Origin: Minisyncoccota bacterium
GTDB taxonomy: Bacteria; Patescibacteriota; Minisyncoccia; Phycocordibacterales; UBA2100
Direction of reading: 5' to 3'
NCBI GenBank assembly: GCA_031291875.1
Contig: JARLIE010000300.1
Span: 1-47,551, forward strand
Length of the DNA stretch: 47,551 bases
A program made the translations under genes and the position numbers. The notes beneath the pieces were generated by a model. That model saw nothing but the letters and a program-made list of their open reading frames with translations, had not been told where the DNA came from and did not search any database. Positions 36,272-43,688 of this stretch are shown here, piece by piece. Each line of letters starts with the position of its first letter. The stretch's first letter is position 1.

Positions 36272-36706
36272 GTGTACGTAGATTGCATTACCGTGACGCA
36301 ATGGATCTATGGTTACCGGAGTGAGATTCTAAAAGCGGCACTAAAAGCCTTCCAGATCGCAAGTAATATTGAGCTTGCAACTGGCTACTTTGGTCCTAAA
36401 ACGCATGCGCTCATTAAAACTTTGGCAAACGCGTCTTCTACGGCATCCGTCATTTCAATGGCAACTTCCACAGCATTTACTCGTGATCTTCAGGAAGGTA
36501 TGAGCGGCCCAGACGTTACGCTTTTGCAAACATTGCTCATACACGACAATGCAGGCCCCGCCGCTCAAACGCTCTTACAAACTGGTACCAGCACCTACTT
36601 TGGCTCCGTCACGAAAGCGGCCTTAATCGAATATCAGCAACAGCAGAACATTGTTCCGGCCCTAGGGTATTTCGGCCTTAAAACAAGGGCGATCATGGTT
36701 CAGTGA
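36272..36706 (+). pseudogene. C-terminal peptidoglycan-binding-domain fragment of a surface protein
   Basis: Begins mid-domain (KAALKAFQ...GYFGPKT), then a full RDLQEGMSGPDVTLLQ...YFG..TKAAL.EYQ domain; no signal peptide or good start. Confidence 0.55.
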
Positions 36707-36842
36707 CAGGCGGGGAAATGTACTCTAAAAGTGGGGTTGGGGTACCCCGGCTCTATATTTGGGGTAATCTGAATTTGCAATGAACCCTAGCAAATCAAGC
36801 TAACCATTGAGGAAATAAGCCAAGATTTCGATGTGGATAACC

Positions 36843-36930
36843 TTGTGTAATTTGCGCAATTTGATATACTCACACACGAATCAATACGAAAGAGGGCCCA
36901 AAAGGTGTTAGTGCCTAAGGGCCCTTTTTC
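36843..36930 (+). ncRNA. Promoter plus ~55-nt hairpin transcript convergent on the NYN gene
   Basis: TTGTGT-16-TATACT (TG-extended), then hairpin GAAAGAGGGCCC...GGGCCCTTTTTC (36888-36930); no ORF. Confidence 0.35.
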
Positions 36931-36933
36931 AAT

Positions 36934-37452
36934 TTATGCGTGCTTATATTCAATCTTTTTCCGTACATCTGCGTCTCCAAGATTGGCAAAAAATTCACTC
37001 CCCATCTTTTTATACAGAGAGGAGGCAAACTCGGAATTAGGGAAAAGCATTTTCCCGAACTTCTCTTTCTTGATTAGGAAATCAACCATCTTTTTATAGT
37101 CGCCATCTCCTGAGACGATATAAATCTTTCCCGTCAACTCACCCTCAACGAGCTTTCTCATCACATTAAAAATGATGTCACAATCAACATTTCCTTTCTT
37201 TTTACCCTTAAGCGCTGCGGAATGCTCACGAAAGGAAAGAATAAATCCTGCTTTTTGAAGATTATCGTAGAGATCTTGTTCACCCTCTGAGATATAGCCC
37301 AAGAAGTAATAGGCTTCTCCAACTTTGTATTTATCTTTTAGGTAGGTGCGTAAACGTGCGTGATTTACGGCCCAACCTTTCTCCTTAGTGCCCAAATGTA
37401 GATTTTGTCCATCGATGAAGGCGAGATTGGGATTTTGCGGATCGATTGTCAT
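36934..37452 (-). CDS. NYN/LabA-family (PIN-like) ribonuclease
   Basis: AFIDGQNL, KGNVDCD, VSGDGDY acidic motifs. Confidence 0.92.
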   Translation of the reverse strand: MTIDPQNPNLAFIDGQNLHLGTKEKGWAVNHARLRTYLKDKYKVGEAYYFLGYISEGEQDLYDNLQKAGFILSFREHSAALKGKKKGNVDCDIIFNVMRKLVEGELTGKIYIVSGDGDYKKMVDFLIKKEKFGKMLFPNSEFASSLYKKMGSEFFANLGDADVRKKIEYKHA

Positions 37453-37632
37453 AAAATAGCCGATAAGGCTTCGCAAATAATACCATTTTTAGCCTCTAAT
37501 AAATCGTGGGAAAAACCTCCATTATTAACTTCGCACACTCGAGGTTGTGCGAAGCTAGCATCCCTACAATAAATGCGAAAGGGGAGTGTGTGGACAAAGA
37601 TCATGGCTCACCGAATTTAAGAAAAACCACCT

Positions 37633-38199
37633 TCATTGCGAAGGTGGTCCGAGGATTTTTTCGATCGATTGGAATAAGTCGATCATTTCTTCGCATCGCG
37701 CATAGACATCCGGATCGATATGCCAGCGTTCCTGGTCCAGCACTGATTCCGCGCCTTCAATATGACCATGTGACATCTTGTAGGGCGAGTGATATACAAG
37801 CATCCTTGAACCCTTAACGTGCGGCGCATGATGCAAATATTGTATGACGATGAGAGTTGGCTGCCAGGGACTGTTCCTTACTTCCTCAACAATTTCCCAA
37901 TTTCGTGGCAACCAGCCATCCCAGCAGAACTTCACCTCTACAAACTCTCTTTCGAGCTTCGGTGCTTCACCTTCCTTTGGAAGAAGCAGATAGAAGTCCG
38001 GCATGCCGCTTAGTTGATTTTTTAGTCCGGCATTGAAATTCACGTCACGGGTCGGTAGGAGCGGACGAATCCACTCGTATCCCGTCCTACGAATATCAAC
38101 GCCGGAACCCCGAAACATCATTTCAGTAATTGCTTCGGCAAAACGCCCTTTGAAAGGGCTCTGATAGTTCAGTTTTTCTCCCACAGCATCATCCTCCAA
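37633..38199 (-). CDS. Putative PD-(D/E)XK nuclease-fold protein
   Basis: GRFAE helix, MPDF...FVEVKF. Confidence 0.6.
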   Translation of the reverse strand: MEDDAVGEKLNYQSPFKGRFAEAITEMMFRGSGVDIRRTGYEWIRPLLPTRDVNFNAGLKNQLSGMPDFYLLLPKEGEAPKLEREFVEVKFCWDGWLPRNWEIVEEVRNSPWQPTLIVIQYLHHAPHVKGSRMLVYHSPYKMSHGHIEGAESVLDQERWHIDPDVYARCEEMIDLFQSIEKILGPPSQ

Positions 38200-38326
38200 T
38201 GTTCATGTACTTGCTTAGGCATACCACGGGAATCGGTAGACTGTAAATTTGTTCACGAAATGATAGAGATTCCATAGATATACTGCCGGTTGACATCAGA
38301 AGAAGCTAGGAGGATGCTTTCAGAAT

Positions 38327-38557
38327 ATGAGCAAAAGGGGGCTCAAGCTCACAGAGAAGCAATTCGCTTGGCTTCTCTTCTTAGCTATGTTTGCGGCTTA
38401 TTTTATAGTCTATTTCGCTGGATCGTACCTGCGTAATTGCATTTTCGTTTGGCCTCCTCGTTTTGACATTAAGGCGTGTTGGGATGAGCAGATACAGCCG
38501 GCACAACAGAATGCGGCGGAAAATGCATACAATTTTCTACCCGACATAAAGTTTTAA
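38327..38557 (+). CDS. Small single-TM hypothetical protein
   Basis: 76 aa with a TM and two Cys; 8 bp upstream of the HNH gene. Confidence 0.55.
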   Translation: MSKRGLKLTEKQFAWLLFLAMFAAYFIVYFAGSYLRNCIFVWPPRFDIKACWDEQIQPAQQNAAENAYNFLPDIKF

Positions 38558-38565
38558 ATATCGAC

Positions 38566-39282
38566 ATGGCAATACCTAACGCTCAGTACGAGATACCGGT
38601 CTTGAAGGCACTAATAAAATTAGGTGGAAGATCGACGGTTCAAGAAATTTATCCTGTAGTGGAAAAGATAATGTTCTCGCTCCTTAGGAAGAGCCCTGGA
38701 GAATATGGCAGCCACAAAAGTTCGAAGGAGCCAATATGGCACAACAAGACAAGGTGGGCCAGAGAGGCCCTAAAACAAAAACATGAACTTCTCGGTACAG
38801 AGAAAGGTGTATGGAGCATCACTCCTTTAGGGAGGGAGCGCATAGACCTTATCAGGGAATCCAAATCTGACCCCGATTCTTTAGATAGCGAAGACGACAA
38901 GCAAAACCTGCTAACGGAATATACCGACTTTTCCGAGGCGGAGTCTATCGAGAAAGTTGAAGAAGGGCGTAGGTTACTCCGCTATCACTATGTTCGAGAG
39001 CGCAATCCAAAAATCATTCACATGGCAAAACAAATTGCGCTAAAGAAATACGGAGAATTGCGTTGCGAGGTTTGCAAATTCTCGTTCAAAGAAAAATATG
39101 GGAAGCGCACGGAAACATACATTGAAGGGCATCATCGACTTTCTGTTCGCGATATGGGCCAAGGGCACAAAACCGCGGTAGAAGACATAGCTTTGTTGTG
39201 TTCAAACTGTCACAGAGCAATACACGCGAAATATCCTTATATTTCTGTTGAAGAACTAAAGGCGATTACAGTGGTCAGTTGA
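38566..39282 (+). CDS. Mrr-N winged-helix + McrA-like HNH endonuclease (probable modification-dependent restriction)
   Basis: P.LKAL..LGG...W.NK.RWAR..L...GVWSIT..G (Mrr_N); RERN, CEVC.FSF...YG, IEGHH, LLCSNCHRAIH. Confidence 0.85.
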   Translation: MAIPNAQYEIPVLKALIKLGGRSTVQEIYPVVEKIMFSLLRKSPGEYGSHKSSKEPIWHNKTRWAREALKQKHELLGTEKGVWSITPLGRERIDLIRESKSDPDSLDSEDDKQNLLTEYTDFSEAESIEKVEEGRRLLRYHYVRERNPKIIHMAKQIALKKYGELRCEVCKFSFKEKYGKRTETYIEGHHRLSVRDMGQGHKTAVEDIALLCSNCHRAIHAKYPYISVEELKAITVVS

Positions 39283-39359
39283 AGACTTACGTTTCATTTG
39301 GTAAGTGTTAGTATGAAGACAAGCTCGTACAGTGAAATAAGAGCTGATATACGTCAAGT

Positions 39360-40676
39360 ATGCCAGATTCCTCTAAAAGAGATATAAAAATCGAGACAGA
39401 TCCTCGGAAAAGGCTCTTCATTGAATTGCTAACCAGAGATATTTCACTAATCGACTGCATTCTGGATTTGATTGATAATTCAGTAGACAGCGCTGTTCAG
39501 CTTGCCAAATTTAAAGCCTCAGCAGGTCTTAGTAAGAAGCCAACTAAGAGACTCGCTAAGTTCCTAGTCTCCGTTAACTTATCGCCTCAAGAGTTCTCCA
39601 TCGTTGATAATGCTAAGGGGATAGACGAGATCACAGTCAAAGAGGAGGTGTTTCGTTTTGGTGCAACCAACAAAAAAAGAAATACTTCTGGTTTGAGCGT
39701 ATACGGGATAGGCATGAAAAGAGCCCTTTTTAAGATTGGGAGAGAGATCAAATTCGAGTCGAAAACGAAGGAGGAGAGGACGACCGTAAACATGGACGTC
39801 GATGAGTGGATGGGCGATGAAGAAAATTGGGCTATAAAAGGAAGCACGCAAAAGAACACTGGAAAATCTACAGGTACAAATATTGTGGTTCGGAAAATCA
39901 ATCCAGATATTGCGCGAAATTTCTCAAGCCCAGCGTTTCAAAGACTCTTGATCGATAAGATCGCAATGACACACGGCGTTTTCCTTCACAATGGCTTGCG
40001 GATTGAAGTAAATGGAACTTCAGTCAAAAGCCATATGCCGACAATAGCTTCCTCAAAACGTGTTGGGATATCTTCTAAAGTCTTTACCAAAGGAGAAGTC
40101 AAAATTCGAATAATAGCGGGGCTTTCTTCAAATGACGAAAGAGCTTCAGACGGTTGGTATGTCTTCTGTAACGGAAGAATGATCCTCGAAGGAGATAAAA
40201 GTTACCAAACTGGGTGGGGTACAAATGATCTTAGAAAGTTCCATGCAAGTACAGGCAAATTCATTGGCTTTGTTTATTTTGAAAGCAACGACGTGAGCCT
40301 GTTGCCTTGGACAACAACGAAAAACGCGGTTGATTATGATTCAGAAATATATCAATACGCATTGGGACACATGATTACCATAGCGAAGCCGATCGTTAGG
40401 TACTTGGTAAAGCAGTTTTACAAGCAGAAGAAAGACAAAAAAGGTGTGGAAGCTGCTTTGGATGGAGCAAAGGAGGTATCGGTAGCGACTGTTGGTCCAA
40501 GTTCTCTATTTTCGGTTAAGTTACCTAAAAACATAAAGGGAAATAAAGAAGAAATTGCATACGAAGTTGCGACGAAAGACATTTCGAAAGTTAGGAAATT
40601 TGAAGAAGACGAAGATATGCCAAATGAAGAGATTGGCCGTAGAACTTTTTATTACTTCTTGAACCACCAAGAGTAG
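39360..40676 (+). CDS. MORC-like GHKL ATPase (HATPase_c + S5-like domain)
   Basis: DLIDNSVD (N box), DNAKGI (G1), YGIGMKRA (G2), GTNIVV (G3), GWYVFCNGRMI. Confidence 0.88.
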   Translation: MPDSSKRDIKIETDPRKRLFIELLTRDISLIDCILDLIDNSVDSAVQLAKFKASAGLSKKPTKRLAKFLVSVNLSPQEFSIVDNAKGIDEITVKEEVFRFGATNKKRNTSGLSVYGIGMKRALFKIGREIKFESKTKEERTTVNMDVDEWMGDEENWAIKGSTQKNTGKSTGTNIVVRKINPDIARNFSSPAFQRLLIDKIAMTHGVFLHNGLRIEVNGTSVKSHMPTIASSKRVGISSKVFTKGEVKIRIIAGLSSNDERASDGWYVFCNGRMILEGDKSYQTGWGTNDLRKFHASTGKFIGFVYFESNDVSLLPWTTTKNAVDYDSEIYQYALGHMITIAKPIVRYLVKQFYKQKKDKKGVEAALDGAKEVSVATVGPSSLFSVKLPKNIKGNKEEIAYEVATKDISKVRKFEEDEDMPNEEIGRRTFYYFLNHQE

Positions 40677-40678
40677 TC

Positions 40679-41611
40679 ATGGCGTTAAATTATCAGCTGC
40701 GCCCGGCTAAACATATTGAACGACATATATTTGTCGATGTTTTACAGCATTTAAGAAACGCTGGACACGATATTTCGAGATATCATTATGTAGGATTTGG
40801 TTCGCATCACTACGTGGATTTTATATTATTTCATCGTCTTCTATCTATCCGAACGATGACATGCGTAGAAAAGGAGGAGAGCAAAGCGAAACGAATGTCT
40901 TTCAATAAGCCCTATAAATTCATTAAACTCGAAATAGAGGACGTAATGGATTTTATGCCCAAGATCAACAATAGAGACAAATATATTGTTTGGCTTGATT
41001 TTGAATGTCATCTAAATGCAGAAGTGATGTCACACATAGCATCATTAGTTAACACACTCGCAAACGGCTCTGTTTTTATGATCACTGTCAATGCAAACCC
41101 ACCCTCAAGAGATAATTCCACTCCGCAAAGTCCAGAAGAAATCGAAAGAGAAAGGGAAAAATATTCTAAGGAACTTAGCCCATATTGTGGCACTGTGCGT
41201 AATGAAGATGTAACAAGAAAAGAACTGCCAAATCTACTAGTTCGTTCGATGAGTGCAAAAATCGCTGATGCTCTAATAGGAAGGACGAACGATGATTTCT
41301 TACAACTATTTAATTATGTTTACCAAGATGGTCAAAGAATGCTTACCTATGGAGGGATTGTTGACCAAAAGGATCGAACTCAGACAATCAAAGACTCGTT
41401 GAAACGTGTTGAACACGTAAATTATGATTCAGAACCACGCGCAATAAACGTACCTGCCTTAACAATGCGAGAGAAGCTCTTTCTGGATAAGAAAGTCCCA
41501 AAGTCGGGCACCATCCATAATATTCCTTTCGAATTAACTTCAGACGAAATCAAGAACTACGTTGAATACGCGCGGTATTACCCGACTTACCATGAAATAC
41601 AGGCGAGTTAA
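40679..41611 (+). CDS. Putative Rossmann-fold methyltransferase ('O-methyltransferase', Methyltransf_35-like)
   Basis: NYQLRPAKHIER N-terminus, YVGFGS motif I, M.CVE acidic end of strand 2, WLDF, Y.DGQRMLTYGG; family name recalled, needs an HMM check. Confidence 0.7.
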   Translation: MALNYQLRPAKHIERHIFVDVLQHLRNAGHDISRYHYVGFGSHHYVDFILFHRLLSIRTMTCVEKEESKAKRMSFNKPYKFIKLEIEDVMDFMPKINNRDKYIVWLDFECHLNAEVMSHIASLVNTLANGSVFMITVNANPPSRDNSTPQSPEEIEREREKYSKELSPYCGTVRNEDVTRKELPNLLVRSMSAKIADALIGRTNDDFLQLFNYVYQDGQRMLTYGGIVDQKDRTQTIKDSLKRVEHVNYDSEPRAINVPALTMREKLFLDKKVPKSGTIHNIPFELTSDEIKNYVEYARYYPTYHEIQAS

Positions 41612-41623
41612 TCCTCTGTAGAG

Positions 41624-42892
41624 TTACTTTTCAGTAACTTCGTTACGAATTTTGCTCAAAAAGGGGTACTTTGTGATTTCATTTTTTTGAACGGTAGCGG
41701 TGAGTTTATTCGTCTTATTTGCGTTGTAGCCATATAAATTCCTTGTATAGATCTTTTTTTGGAATTCTTTGACATCAAAGATAAAGATAAATTCAGATTG
41801 GATACCAAATTTTGAGAGGGGAGGGTTAGCCACCATCTTCGCGATCTCTTTCTTCAAAGCAGCAAATGATTTTTTATTCTTGAGCAACAAAGTATATTCA
41901 ATTGTAATTAATTTATTCAAAACGGACGGCTTTTTATTCTTATCTCGAACGTAAACGTTCGTAATGTATTCCGGGAAGATTTTATCTAAGTTCTTCTTTA
42001 GTACATCCGCAAACTTTAGGGCTCGTAAATTCAATATTTGTTTTTGAAAGTTAACCTGTTTCGAATTGATTTTTGAATTCGCATATTCTTTTAATCGTCT
42101 CTTTGTGTTCTTCTTTATGTGTTTCTTAAACATTTTTATGTATCGAGCATTCAATTCGAAGCCAGCATATTTTCTTTTAGTAAATACCGCTTGCGCAGGA
42201 ACAGTGCCTGAACCCGCAAAAGGATCGAACACAACGTCACCCTCATCGGTTGTGAGGTCTATTATTTGTTTAACCAGACCTTCCGGGAGAGGACAAAAAT
42301 GGTCAACATATCCATTCCCCCAGGATCCTTGGGTAGGTATGTCAAAGCTCCATATCTCAGTCGGAGTCTTGCCCTTGGGGTTATAACGTTCGGGATACTT
42401 AACCCACCACTGCTTTAAATCACTGTAATCTCGAATTCTGTCGATGCGATATTTAAAGTTTTCAGACTTCTTGAAAACAAGAATATACTCAATCAGTCCT
42501 CTCATCTGTCCTTTTTTTGACCACGGAACAGTTCTTTCTTTCCTCCAAATAATAATTTCTTGCAATATCCACCCAGTCCCCTTTAGTTCTCTGGCAAAGT
42601 CGAAGGGAAGTGTATATATCTCTCCTTTTCGGCGGAACGTATCGATTATTACCCAAAGTGTACCTGTGTCTTTGGTTATATCGTGGGTTTTCTTGAAAAC
42701 ATCTTTGAGGTCAGCGAGATAGGCAGGATATTTTTGCCCGAAACCGATTTGTTTCTTGTGCCCGTAATCTTTTAGATCAAAGTAGGGAGGGGAGGTGATG
42801 GTCACATCAACACGGTGCCCTTTCATTACTCGATCTAGATCTCGAGCATCGGCGTTGTGAATTTTACCGATGGGATTTGTGCGCGTTTTCAT
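41624..42892 (-). CDS. Beta-class amino DNA methyltransferase (probable m4C) with C-terminal extension
   Basis: TSPPY motif IV first, H.CPLP..L, DPFAGSGT motif I later, GFEL...Y; about 150 extra C-terminal aa. Confidence 0.9.
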   Translation of the reverse strand: MKTRTNPIGKIHNADARDLDRVMKGHRVDVTITSPPYFDLKDYGHKKQIGFGQKYPAYLADLKDVFKKTHDITKDTGTLWVIIDTFRRKGEIYTLPFDFARELKGTGWILQEIIIWRKERTVPWSKKGQMRGLIEYILVFKKSENFKYRIDRIRDYSDLKQWWVKYPERYNPKGKTPTEIWSFDIPTQGSWGNGYVDHFCPLPEGLVKQIIDLTTDEGDVVFDPFAGSGTVPAQAVFTKRKYAGFELNARYIKMFKKHIKKNTKRRLKEYANSKINSKQVNFQKQILNLRALKFADVLKKNLDKIFPEYITNVYVRDKNKKPSVLNKLITIEYTLLLKNKKSFAALKKEIAKMVANPPLSKFGIQSEFIFIFDVKEFQKKIYTRNLYGYNANKTNKLTATVQKNEITKYPFLSKIRNEVTEK

Positions 42893-42923
42893 GGCTTAAA
42901 CACAGTATATATTTTTTGTACAG

Positions 42924-43160
42924 AAAAGCCCGTTACTACGGTCCGCGGGTACAGGCGAGTATTGGCATGATGACCACCGGGCGGTATCATGTGCTCACAC
43001 ATCCAATATTGGCCCGAGAGGGCGACAGCCTAAACCACTAGAAATAGAGGCATGGCTGAGGAATCGCGTTCAACATAGACAACCCGTCATTCAGGGCGTT
43101 GAACGCGTTATATGGGGAAACCTGTATAGGGCCGCAAGGCCTCCTGGTGGCGGGCTTTTT
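42924..43160 (+). ncRNA. Unidentified ~237-nt multi-branch structured RNA
   Basis: 15-bp closing helix 42924-42938/43145-43159; GNRA-capped hairpins (GAGA 43016, GAAA 43041, GAAA 43117, GCAA 43134); CCUAA/AUGG receptor motif; G-U pairs favour the + strand. Confidence 0.75.
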
Positions 43161-43199
43161 GTTTACCTGCCATCGGATTAGCAACTAAGCTTTATTCGT

Positions 43200-43688
43200 A
43201 TGGCGAACAGTATTTCGAGAGTATTTAAATGGGCTGGTATTGTACTGCTGGTGATTCTCATGGGCGCATTCTTTGCGGGAGCAACCAACTCGTCTCCGTC
43301 GTCACCGAATGTGGCGAATACCGATGCAGTACAGAGTACAGCACCGCAGCTCACTGCAGCACAAGCCAGCAGCTCTCAAGAAACTACGAATCAGACACAG
43401 GCGAATTCATCGTCTCAGGGAGGTGGAACTGGTCTTGTCAGAAAAACTACGACAGGCGTCGTGCGACTCAGTACGGTCGATTTTAATCAGGCTTTGGGCA
43501 TAAGCCAACAGGTCATCATCTTTGGCGGGGACGCAGATGCTGTCGATGATGGATCGGGATGGATATGTGTCGTAAATGGTGAGAACAACTTCGTTAGCGC
43601 AGTCATCGGGGACACAGTAACGGTCACGGGAGAAAATGCCGTCGGCACTCCCGCGCTTATTAGCTGCCGCGTCGATTCTCTCCAATAA
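43200..43688 (+). CDS. Membrane-anchored protein with OB-fold-like C-terminus
   Basis: TM, S/Q-rich linker, C.V......GDTVTVTG....P.L.SC. Confidence 0.6.
   Translation: MANSISRVFKWAGIVLLVILMGAFFAGATNSSPSSPNVANTDAVQSTAPQLTAAQASSSQETTNQTQANSSSQGGGTGLVRKTTTGVVRLSTVDFNQALGISQQVIIFGGDADAVDDGSGWICVVNGENNFVSAVIGDTVTVTGENAVGTPALISCRVDSLQ

What the first reader, a model, noticed from the sequence alone, without database searches (positions are those of the whole stretch)
42924..43160. Unannotated ~237-nt RNA with four GNRA tetraloops and a tetraloop receptor, next to the defence module
Seen: closing helix AAAAGCCCGUUACUA/UGGUGGCGGGCUUUU. It encloses stems 42959-43009 (with inner 42966-42991), GCCC-GAGA-GGGC, CAGCC-UAA...CUA-GAAA-UAG...AU-GGCUG, a perfect 10-bp stem 43065-43074/43098-43107, UUAUAUGGG-GAAA-CCUGUAUAG and GGCC-GCAA-GGCC. 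A pseudoknot 42945-42950/43082-43087 is possible. The G-U pairs favour the + strand. Known: CCUAAG/UAUGG is the 11-nt GAAA receptor; CCUAAA/CAUGG here is a close variant, typical of tertiary-folded ribozymes and large ncRNAs. Inference: a functional RNA, possibly a component of the adjacent system. It lacks the RNase P, SRP, tmRNA and group I/II core motifs that I know.
Basis: partly seen in the sequence, partly recalled or inferred. Interest (0 to 1): 0.85.

Follow-up and report, generated by a model that had tools for sequence, protein, structure and literature searches.

The report
LOOT RNA leader with pseudoknot switch
The right-hand two thirds of the reported RNA is a copy of LOOT, a known RNA family of unknown function in tiny-genome (CPR) bacteria; the left third is promoter DNA, and about 120 copies suggest a folded leader that can switch shape ahead of the next gene.

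Summary
Window 43027-43142 (+) matches Rfam LOOT (RF03000) over the whole model: 71.2 bits against a cut-off of 46.4. The four GNRA loops, the receptor-like loop and the 10-bp stem are real.

The 5' third (42924-42996) is not part of the conserved RNA.
- Folded alone it is no better than shuffles (z -0.18).
- No relative shares it.
- It holds a sigma70-like promoter, 42962-42967 and 42985-42990.

The 'closing helix' is real complementarity, but only in this copy. In 102 copies the 3' tail pairs instead with the P2 loop. This 7-bp pseudoknot core is 99% paired, with two-sided changes at all 7 pairs. Alternatively the tail pairs with an 'anti-tail' beyond the U-rich stretch.

A same-strand ORF follows in 98 of 107 loci, and in 20 of 20 loci from other classes. 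It usually starts within 60 nt and often has a hydrophobic N-terminus.

Best reading: a roughly 170-nt LOOT leader, 42997 to about 43165-43176, that switches conformation ahead of ORF 43200-43688. No link to the neighbouring defence genes is shown, and no RNA data exist.

The parts
42924..42938 (+). It is an upstream copy of an anti-tail-like sequence and is probably not part of the RNA.
   Evidence: It pairs with 43145-43159 at -25.9 kcal/mol, with 0 of 1000 shuffles as good. It lies in sequence that no genus relative shares. It matches the downstream anti-tail of L024 at 12 of 13 positions, but that likeness is not significant: 29 of 300 shuffles reach the score.
42962..42990 (+). Sigma70-like promoter: -35 TTGGCA at 42962-42967, a 17-nt spacer, and -10 TATCAT at 42985-42990.
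   Evidence: 10 of 12 matches. A -10-like hexamer is present in 79 of 102 loci and mostly ends 3-9 nt before the alignment anchor, which sits 2 nt before the conserved ACA. The consensus TnTGnTATAAT lies upstream of ACAA in alignment A1.
42997..43011 (+). Inferred 5' end and conserved leader (family consensus ACAAYUnAAU).
   Evidence: The leader columns are conserved in A1 and A4. ACAA is 72-89% conserved at the anchor. The start point is inferred from the promoter spacing; it is not measured.
43012..43023 (+). P0, an optional GNRA hairpin (GCCC-GAGA-GGGC).
   Evidence: 34 of 102 rows have letters in all 8 stem columns. All 4 pairs show two-sided changes, and 74.5% of cells are paired.
43027..43057 (+). 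P1: outer stem, receptor-like internal loop (43029-43034 and 43051-43055), inner stem, and a GAAA loop at 43041-43044.
   Evidence: Rfam alignment. P1a is 95.6% paired and P1b 90.5%. The receptor halves read CCUAAA in 75 of 102 and CAUGG in 74 of 102. Columns 43034 and 43051 co-vary: A/C 80, C/U 15, C/C 5, G/U 1, A/U 1.
43065..43107 (+). P2: a 10-bp stem with an apical loop at 43075-43097.
   Evidence: All 10 pairs show two-sided changes. The apical region folded alone has a mean of -4.8 kcal/mol, z about -2.1.
43083..43095 (+). 5' strand of the pseudoknot, in the P2 loop.
   Evidence: see the 3' strand below.
43109..43128 (+). P3 hairpin with a GAAA loop at 43117-43120.
   Evidence: GAAA is present in the P3 zone in 102 of 102 rows. 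The helices are 89-95% paired.
43129..43142 (+). P4 hairpin with a GCAA loop at 43134-43137. The Rfam model ends here.
   Evidence: The pairs vary on both sides. MAFFT aligns this variable hairpin poorly, so only 73-75% of cells are paired.
43143..43154 (+). 3' tail. It is the 3' strand of the pseudoknot and also the 5' arm of the alternative hairpin H5 (43144-43154).
   Evidence: The seven core pairs (43083-43089 with 43148-43154) are 99.4% and 99.0% paired over 102 distinct sequences, and every pair shows two-sided changes. The cognate loop-tail duplex averages -24.1 against -13.6 kcal/mol for non-cognate pairs, with 0 of 2000 permutations as good. Twenty loci of other classes repeat this: -23.2 against -13.5.
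43156..43164 (+). U-rich stretch (UUUUUGUUU). It is either the U tract after the pseudoknot helix or the loop of H5.
   Evidence: Three T columns are at least 90% conserved in A3 and A4. The median is 5 T in the stretch after the pseudoknot strand.
43166..43176 (+). Anti-tail, the 3' arm of hairpin H5 (11 bp with 43144-43154).
   Evidence: Cognate pairs average -13.8 against -11.4 kcal/mol for non-cognate pairs, with 0 of 2000 permutations as good. In 65 of 80 loci the minimum-energy fold has at least 6 bp. The hairpin is stronger on the + strand.
43200..43688 (+). Downstream ORF of 162 aa, with an N-terminal membrane anchor and no Pfam or NCBIfam family.
   Evidence: The ORF just downstream is on the same strand in 98 of 107 loci.

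Best explanation
The feature is one of three LOOT RNAs (Rfam RF03000) in this Patescibacteria genome.

The unit is not 42924-43160. It is a promoter (42962-42990), then an RNA that starts near 42997. The RNA comprises:
- a conserved leader;
- P0;
- P1, which carries a receptor-like internal loop;
- P2;
- P3, with an invariant GAAA loop;
- P4;
- a 3' tail.

The tail (43143-43154) closes the fold by pairing with the P2 loop (43083-43095). This makes an H-type pseudoknot of about 12 bp, followed directly by a U-rich stretch.

The same tail can instead pair with an anti-tail just beyond that stretch (43166-43176, hairpin H5). The RNA therefore has two mutually exclusive states, both kept by selection.

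Inferred mechanism: LOOT is the 5' leader of the co-oriented ORF 43200-43688.
- The pseudoknot plus the U tract acts as a conditional terminator. Alternatively it defines a compact 'closed' state.
- Read-through lets H5 form and holds the 'open' state.
- The leader thereby gates expression of the downstream gene, in response to a signal that is still unknown.

Shown: family membership, the helices, the pseudoknot, H5, the promoter motif and the gene arrangement. Inferred: the start and end of the RNA, co-transcription with the ORF, termination at the U tract, and any sensing. The confidence given is for the leader-with-switch reading; that the core is a LOOT RNA is close to certain.
For: Identity:
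- Full-length Rfam match, 71.2 bits, E 1.6e-11.
- Three copies in the genome.
- The family is found in 40 of 116 genomes of the genus, 29 of 151 of the class sample and 30 of 151 of the phylum sample, and in 0 of 14 control genomes.

Boundaries:
- BLAST matches in the 22 other genomes with a match start at window 42970 or later and end by about 43183.
- There is a promoter-like site with 10 of 12 matches.

Pseudoknot:
- 99% paired, with two-sided changes at 7 of 7 pairs.
- Cognate against non-cognate energies differ, with 0 of 2000 permutations as good, and 20 loci of other classes repeat the result.
- It is more stable on the + strand by at least 2 kcal/mol in 91 of 102 loci, and on the - strand in 1.

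H5:
- 0 of 2000 permutations reach the observed value, and the other classes repeat this.
- It is biased to the + strand.
- RNA-level selection therefore reaches beyond the U-rich stretch.

Leader arrangement:
- The downstream ORF is on the same strand in 98 of 107 loci (4 opposite, 5 none). Upstream neighbours are 44 same and 46 opposite.
- The start codon lies a median 31 nt after the profile end, and within 60 nt in 89 of 98 loci.
- In the other classes the ORF is on the same strand in 20 of 20 loci.
- The N-terminus is hydrophobic in 64 of 98 downstream ORFs. The comparison values are 229 of 1274 genome-wide ORFs and 1 of 46 upstream divergent ORFs.
Against: - No transcript data. All 7 sequencing runs that hold the locus are DNA, so the start, the end and co-transcription are not measured.
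- The link from the switch to expression is not shown. Start-codon occlusion by the freed anti-tail is no more frequent than in a control with translation-start regions swapped between loci. A drop in accessibility of more than 0.15 occurs in 22% of observed loci against 36% of controls. Pairing with the anti-tail zone occurs in 43% against 41%.
- Only 6 of 65 loci show a terminator-type second hairpin.
- H5 is weak or absent in about half of the loci: 54 of 102 reach -14 kcal/mol or better. One of the genome's own copies, L003, has its start codon right after the U run.
- The downstream genes share no function. Most have no Pfam family, which is unlike a classical riboswitch regulon.
- Rfam files LOOT as 'Gene; sRNA'.
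- The loci are related to each other and the ORF calls are crude, so the counts overstate independence.
Confidence: 0.55

Rival explanations
1. LOOT is a stand-alone, trans-acting small RNA of about 165 nt, ending at the U tract after the pseudoknot. The gene behind it is expressed on its own, and the co-orientation reflects tight gene packing.
For: Rfam types the family as 'Gene; sRNA'. It has its own promoter. A GC-rich helix is followed by a U-rich stretch. The downstream genes have no common function. The start-codon occlusion test was negative.
Against: Co-orientation holds in 98 of 107 and 20 of 20 loci, while upstream genes split 44 to 46. The gap to the start codon is mostly under 60 nt, which leaves little room for a separate promoter, and none was found there in the window. 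H5 co-varies and is biased to the + strand, so selected RNA extends past the U stretch.
Confidence: 0.25
2. A transcript from the weaker upstream promoter starts near 42920, and its 5' arm (42924-42938) captures the tail, giving a 237-nt RNA with a closing helix.
For: The complementarity is far beyond chance: -25.9 kcal/mol, 0 of 1000 shuffles, the strongest of 102 loci. A promoter-like site at 42886-42913 (9 of 12 matches) would start a transcript near 42920. The full 237 nt fold with z -5.27.
Against: No genus relative shares 42924-42969. The family shows almost no upstream-to-tail complementarity: -15.9 against -15.3 kcal/mol. The 5' third alone is unstructured (z -0.18). The helix would displace the pseudoknot, the best-conserved helix of the family. 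Promoter-like sites are common here: 2 were found against 0.8 expected.
Confidence: 0.1
3. The tail, anti-tail and upstream arm are DNA-level inverted repeats. They would serve as recombination or insertion sites where variable genes are placed behind a LOOT promoter. The upstream arm would be a scar of such an event, next to the inserted defence genes.
For: The genes behind LOOT are very diverse and accessory-like: methylases, nucleases and small membrane proteins. There are 1-4 copies per genome with a patchy spread. The upstream arm resembles downstream anti-tails, matching L024 at 12 of 13 positions.
Against: Both pairings are clearly stronger on the RNA-sense strand through G-U pairs, which DNA hairpins would not need. 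The likeness of the upstream arm to anti-tails is not significant: 29 of 300 shuffles reach the score. No LOOT remnant lies on the far side of the defence genes, 36500-39500. No recombinase association was looked for.
Confidence: 0.07

Closest known systems
LOOT RNA motif (Rfam RF03000; from the Weinberg et al. 2017 motif set)
   Same: The core 43027-43142 matches the whole 121-position model, above the curated cut-off. [quoted passage not shown]
   Different: The Rfam model stops at P4. It therefore holds no promoter, leader, P0, 3' tail pseudoknot, U stretch or anti-tail. Its inner P2 stem is mostly non-canonical in this copy (the marks in the NC line). I could not see the original supplement, which may describe more.
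ZTP (pfl) and other pseudoknot riboswitches (recalled knowledge, not tested by any search)
   Same: A distal 3' strand closes the sensor fold by a long-range pseudoknot. The same strand can instead enter a competing hairpin with downstream sequence.
   Different: No Rfam riboswitch family matches the window at gathering score. No ligand is known and no coherent regulon is seen. Here the competing hairpin is not followed by a U tract; the U stretch follows the pseudoknot strand.
c-di-GMP-I (GEMM) riboswitch (recalled knowledge)
   Same: It uses a GNRA loop docking into a receptor between two hairpins. It occurs in several copies per genome, ahead of diverse genes, many for envelope proteins.
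   Different: There is no match to that family. The architecture differs, and no ligand evidence exists.
Intrinsic (Rho-independent) terminators
   Same: A GC-rich helix of about 12 bp is followed directly by a U-rich stretch and often preceded by A-rich sequence.
   Different: The two strands are about 50 nt apart. The 5' strand sits in the loop of another helix, so the stem is a pseudoknot. The simple terminator scan finds nothing here.
11-nt GAAA tetraloop receptor
   Same: CC-UAAN / NAU-GG internal loop. One family member (L012) carries the textbook CCUAAG/UAUGG form. A GAAA loop is present in 102 of 102 copies.
   Different: The usual form here is CCUAAA/CAUGG. An A/C pair replaces the G/U pair, and a C/U pair does so in 15 of 102. 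Docking, and whether it occurs within one molecule or between molecules, was not testable.

Membership tests
LOOT RNA (Rfam RF03000) | Score at or above the curated gathering score, over the full model. | tested here: met
   71.2 bits against 46.4, model positions 1-121 of 121, E 1.6e-11. The whole-genome search repeats it.
LOOT RNA (Rfam RF03000) | P1 hairpin with a conserved CCUAAA / CAUGG internal loop. | tested here: met
   43029-43034 and 43051-43055. Present in 75 and 74 of 102 relatives.
LOOT RNA (Rfam RF03000) | Long P2 hairpin, P3 hairpin with a GAAA loop, P4 hairpin with a GNRA or UNCG loop. | tested here: met
   GAAA is present in 102 of 102.
LOOT RNA (Rfam RF03000) | Inner stem in the apical part of P2, as in the Rfam consensus. 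| tested here: inconclusive
   Most of these pairs are marked non-canonical in the window. The apical region folded alone gives a mean of -4.8 kcal/mol, z about -2.1, across 102 copies. It competes with the pseudoknot.
Riboswitch / cis-regulatory leader | Conserved structured domain directly upstream of, and co-oriented with, a coding gene. | tested here: met
   98 of 107 and 20 of 20 loci. The start codon is within 60 nt in 89 of 98.
Riboswitch / cis-regulatory leader | Mutually exclusive, conserved alternative pairings. | tested here: met
   The pseudoknot and H5 share the tail, and both co-vary.
Riboswitch / cis-regulatory leader | One state hides the ribosome site, or forms a terminator in front of the gene. 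| tested here: inconclusive
   Start-codon occlusion is no more frequent than in the swapped control, and a terminator-type second hairpin occurs in 6 of 65 loci. The U stretch after the pseudoknot is conserved, but termination there is only inferred.
Riboswitch / cis-regulatory leader | Ligand binding, and a functionally coherent set of controlled genes. | not testable with these tools
   No ligand can be tested. The genes are diverse: 6 DNA methylases, 5 PG_binding_1, 4 zinc ribbons, and most with no family. They share only a hydrophobic N-terminus, in 64 of 98.
Component of the neighbouring defence module | Recurrent linkage to the same defence genes, in the same transcription unit. | tested here: not met
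   The module lies upstream, and its nearest gene is divergent. Upstream neighbours of LOOT have no preferred strand. Only 6 of 98 downstream genes are defence-type methyltransferases.

The most novel reading that the evidence does not exclude
LOOT is an orphan riboswitch-like attenuator that is widespread in Patescibacteria. Its tetraloop-receptor fold is closed by a pseudoknot whose 3' strand also serves as the stem of an unusual, split intrinsic terminator. An unknown signal decides between this closed state and the open H5 state. In this way it would control a scattered set of envelope, secreted and restriction-modification genes in these host-dependent bacteria.
Probability: 0.35. Interest if true: 0.75.

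Novelty: new member of a known kind. Interest (0 to 1): 0.45.

Why it matters
As submitted, the finding is a further copy of a catalogued RNA family, so the claim of a new RNA class falls.

What remains of interest is the family itself. LOOT has no known function. In my two paper searches that could retrieve it (a third mixed-term search, ranked by other terms and bears little on this), it appears in print only as an entry of the 2017 motif catalogue and in one passing remark on covariation.

The comparison made here adds four things that the Rfam model lacks:
- a promoter and leader;
- a very well supported pseudoknot with a 3' tail;
- a competing hairpin;
- a near-constant position directly ahead of a same-strand gene, often for a membrane-anchored protein.

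If the leader reading holds, LOOT would be a regulatory RNA class specific to CPR bacteria, whose gene regulation is almost unknown. It would also be an example of a terminator stem built as a pseudoknot. Both are directly testable in vitro with ordinary templates.

Tried and rejected
Expression data. The look-up of sequencing runs listed 7 runs from 3 studies and no RNA holder.

Literature. The main text of PMC5737381 mentions LOOT only as an author's name in its reference list (find). It holds none of the words Parcubacteria, tetraloop, candidate phyla, Microgenomates or groundwater (find). Searches for 'LOOT RNA' and 'LOOT motif' gave one listed paper, of which I read one passage. A wider search gave nothing relevant (listing only).

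Start-codon sequestration by the freed anti-tail. It looked convincing by eye in the window, L001, L018 and L025. It was rejected as a general rule after the swap control.

Upstream arm as a remnant of another LOOT's anti-tail. The likeness is short and not significant: 29 of 300 shuffles reach the score. No LOOT remnant was found in 36500-39500, even at E up to 10.

Pairing of the conserved leader with the P2 loop. I considered this by eye on the output and dropped it as inconsistent between subfamilies. It was not tested formally.

H5 as an ordinary terminator. By eye it is followed by A-rich rather than U-rich sequence (output). This was not counted.

Rows dropped:
- 13 of the 121 profile hits were exact duplicates, leaving 108 unique sequences.
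- 6 of the 108 unique copies, with a tail slice under 18 nt, were left out of the loop-tail test.
- 5 were left out of alignment A3 (L016, L120, L023, L110, L119).
- L021 was also left out of A4, because its profile match begins inside the RNA.
- 14 of 94 loci were skipped in the platform analysis because the tail-to-start stretch was shorter than 40 nt.
- For the replicate I took one best hit from each of 20 of the 29 non-own genomes with a match, roughly in order of score.

Full report
WHAT IS THERE

A scan of the whole window against Rfam gives one match above the gathering score. LOOT (RF03000) matches 43027-43142 on the + strand at 71.2 bits against a cut-off of 46.4, E 1.6e-11, over model positions 1-121 of 121.

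- P1, 43027-43057, with internal loop CCUAAA/CAUGG and a GAAA loop.
- The 10-bp P2 stem, 43065-43074/43098-43107.
- P3, with a GAAA loop at 43117-43120.
- P4, with a GCAA loop at 43134-43137.
- A fourth GNRA hairpin, P0 (43012-23), lies just 5' of the model.

The 237 nt fold better on the + strand (z -5.27) than on the - strand (z -2.91).

WHERE THE FAMILY OCCURS

The genome (1.63 Mb, 312 contigs) has three LOOT copies. Matches above the cut-off occur in:
- 16 of 61 sampled relatives;
- 39 of 116 genomes of the genus, plus one weaker match;
- 29 of 151 genomes of a class sample;
- 30 of 151 genomes of a phylum sample;
- 0 of 14 well-known control genomes.

The nearest named relatives of a window protein are MAGs labelled Paceibacterota, Kaiserbacteria and the like.

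THE 5' THIRD

BLAST of 42893-43199 against the 116 genomes of the genus finds 22 other genomes with a match. No match begins before query position 78 (window 42970), and most begin at 88-113. They end at query 204-292, and the full-length ones at about 266-292. Nothing covers 42924-42969.

Folded alone, 42924-42996 gives z -0.18, and 71 of 200 shuffles fold at least as well. The 75 nt upstream of the leader start give z -0.4 in the window and a mean of -0.55 over 102 loci.

The same stretch holds a sigma70-like promoter: TTGGCA at 42962-42967, a 17-nt spacer and TATCAT at 42985-42990, with 10 of 12 matches. Across the family the consensus upstream of a conserved ACAA reads TnTGnTATAAT. A -10-like hexamer is present in 79 of 102 loci, and 29 of these have TG two bases upstream.

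I infer a start near 42997.

THE CLOSING HELIX

The complementarity of 42924-42938 with the tail is real: -25.9 kcal/mol, with 0 of 1000 shuffles of the upstream region as good. It is the strongest of 102 loci. For the family, however, cognate upstream-to-tail energies (-15.9) barely differ from non-cognate ones (-15.3), and 14 of 2000 permutations do as well. It is a property of this copy.

The upstream arm looks like the anti-tails found downstream of other copies, matching L024 at 12 of 13 positions. Such a short likeness is not significant: 29 of 300 shuffles reach the score. A weaker promoter-like site at 42886-42913 (9 of 12 matches) could start an RNA near 42920, so the long form cannot be excluded.

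THE TAIL'S CONSERVED PARTNERS

The sequence after the end of the Rfam model is conserved. It co-varies with the P2 apical loop.

On a MAFFT alignment of 103 sequences (102 distinct), the seven core pairs 43083-43089 with 43148-43154 are 99.4% paired. Every pair shows two-sided changes; for example one pair reads GC 47, CG 27, AU 15, UG 6, UA 5. A full-length alignment gives 99.0%. On these alignments it is the best-kept helix of the RNA.

A test that does not depend on the alignment agrees. The cognate loop-tail duplex averages -24.1 kcal/mol against -13.6 for non-cognate pairs, with 0 of 2000 permutations as good. The cognate tail is in the best quarter for 101 of 102 loops. The helix has a median of 12 bp. 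It is more stable on the + strand in 91 of 102 loci and on the - strand in 1.

Directly after it comes a U-rich stretch, with three T columns at least 90% conserved.

THE SECOND PARTNER: HAIRPIN H5

The tail also pairs with a segment just beyond the U-rich stretch (hairpin H5). In the window this is 43144-43154 with 43166-43176, 11 bp.
- Cognate pairs average -13.8 kcal/mol against -11.4 for non-cognate pairs, with 0 of 2000 permutations as good.
- 54 of 102 loci reach -14 or better, against 29% of non-cognate pairs.
- 65 of 80 loci have at least 6 such pairs in the minimum-energy fold.
- It too is stronger on the + strand. The subset used for that count was chosen on + strand energy; over all 102 loci the means are -13.8 and -11.1.

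The pseudoknot and H5 use the same nucleotides and so exclude each other. H5 also shows that selection acts on RNA beyond the U stretch.

REPLICATE IN OTHER CLASSES

Twenty loci from other classes of the phylum give the same picture:
- Pseudoknot: -23.2 against -13.5 kcal/mol, 0 of 2000 permutations.
- H5: -12.4 against -10.0 kcal/mol, 0 of 2000 permutations; 8 of 20 loci at -14 or better.

GENE CONTEXT

There are 108 unique copies. The longest ORF just downstream is on the LOOT strand in 98 of 107 assessable loci (4 opposite, 5 none). Upstream neighbours are 44 same, 46 opposite and 16 none, of 106.

With the first start codon after the RNA, the start lies a median 31 nt beyond the end of the profile match, and within 60 nt in 89 of 98 loci. 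In 64 of 98 the first 60 residues hold a hydrophobic 17-mer. The comparison values are 229 of 1274 crude genome-wide ORFs and 1 of 46 upstream divergent ORFs. In the other classes the downstream ORF is on the same strand in 20 of 20 loci, and 10 of these are hydrophobic.

Pfam finds little in common among the downstream proteins: N6_N4 DNA methylase in 6 of 98, PG_binding_1 in 5, zinc ribbons in 4, Ltp, Mrr_cat and HNH in 2 each, and no family in most. PADLOC picks out the same 6 methyltransferases.

In the window the downstream ORF (43200-43688) is a 162-aa protein with an N-terminal anchor and no family.

These loci are related to each other and the ORF calls are simple, so the counts are descriptive.

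THE DEFENCE MODULE

The genes to the left are:
- Mrr_N plus HNH, 38566-39282.
- HATPase_c_3, 39360-40676.
- Methyltransf_35, 40679-41611.
- An N6_N4 DNA methylase on the - strand, 41624-42892.

They are upstream of LOOT and the nearest is divergent, so LOOT is not in their transcription unit. The other two copies in this genome have other neighbours. No linkage is shown.

MECHANISM

Shown: a promoter motif, a compact fold with an invariant GAAA loop and a receptor-like loop, a pseudoknot that closes the fold, a U stretch, a competing hairpin, and a same-strand gene close behind.

The receptor columns co-vary: A/C 80, C/U 15, C/C 5, G/U 1, A/U 1.

Inferred: LOOT is the 5' leader of that gene. 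The pseudoknot plus U stretch has the geometry of an intrinsic terminator, a GC-rich helix followed at once by Us (established knowledge). Its stem, however, is split and knotted.
- If it forms in time, transcription stops and a LOOT RNA of about 165 nt results.
- If not, the anti-tail is made and H5 holds the open state.
- The local hairpin that the P2 apical region can form (mean -4.8 kcal/mol, z about -2.1) would compete for the 5' strand.

What tips the balance is unknown.

Against a simple model: start-codon occlusion by the freed anti-tail is no more frequent than in a swapped control, and only 6 of 65 loci show a terminator-type second hairpin. No transcript data exist.

NOVELTY

The object is a new member of a known family. 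The Rfam model ends at P4. The only text I could find on LOOT is a remark about six helices and cross-covariation. The promoter, leader, pseudoknot, H5 and leader-like placement are not in anything I could read. The 2017 supplement, which I could not open, may already show some of them.

Noticed in passing
window 38566-42892: A compact defence-like island: an Mrr_N plus HNH nuclease, a HATPase_c_3 protein (faint MzaB likeness, E 1.6e-4, far below the cut-off), a Methyltransf_35 'putative O-methyltransferase', and a divergent N6_N4 DNA methylase.
   Followed up: partly
window 43003-43012: The leader of this copy holds a perfect 10-nt palindrome (CCAAUAUUGG). Close relatives keep most of it. It could be a self-pairing or dimer contact, or chance.
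   Followed up: no
L024, L025, L073, L079, L082 and the window, the 30 nt before the leader start: Close relatives carry short hairpins whose 3' arm abuts or overlaps the -10 box. The sequences differ but the pairing is kept. This was seen by eye in the output. Several of these loci also share a conserved block of about 50 nt further upstream.
   Followed up: no
102 loci, +23 to +62 nt from the tail start (window about 43165-43204): UUAUU and UUUAU are enriched just after the anti-tail: 24 of 102 loci against about 8 expected from shuffles. ATTA peaks at +35 to +41.
   Followed up: partly
L015, L021, L039, L062, L073, L082 (downstream of LOOT): In some subfamilies the anti-tail is also the 5' arm of a second hairpin that is followed by a run of U. 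This gives a four-segment, attenuator-like layout. By my criterion it is counted in only 6 of 65 loci.
   Followed up: partly
L031 (G100, contig 11), two LOOT copies about 1.2 kb apart; G172 contig 3, two copies about 7 kb apart: LOOT-plus-gene units can lie in tandem on one contig.
   Followed up: no
L023 (G033): This copy lacks the P4 hairpin. The Rfam alignment had taken its tail for P4, yet the tail still pairs with its P2 loop over 10 bp by eye.
   Followed up: no
G000 as a whole: The assembly (1.63 Mb, 312 contigs) is larger than most genomes of its genus, which are about 0.7-1.1 Mb as listed. It might hold more than one strain, which would affect the count of three LOOT copies.
   Followed up: no
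G000, crude genome-wide ORFs: Only 162 of 1359 ORFs of at least 150 aa have GGAG, GAGG or AGGA at -4 to -18 of the first start codon, and 6 of 98 LOOT-led ORFs do. This suggests little use of Shine-Dalgarno sites, but the start codons are not curated.
   Followed up: no
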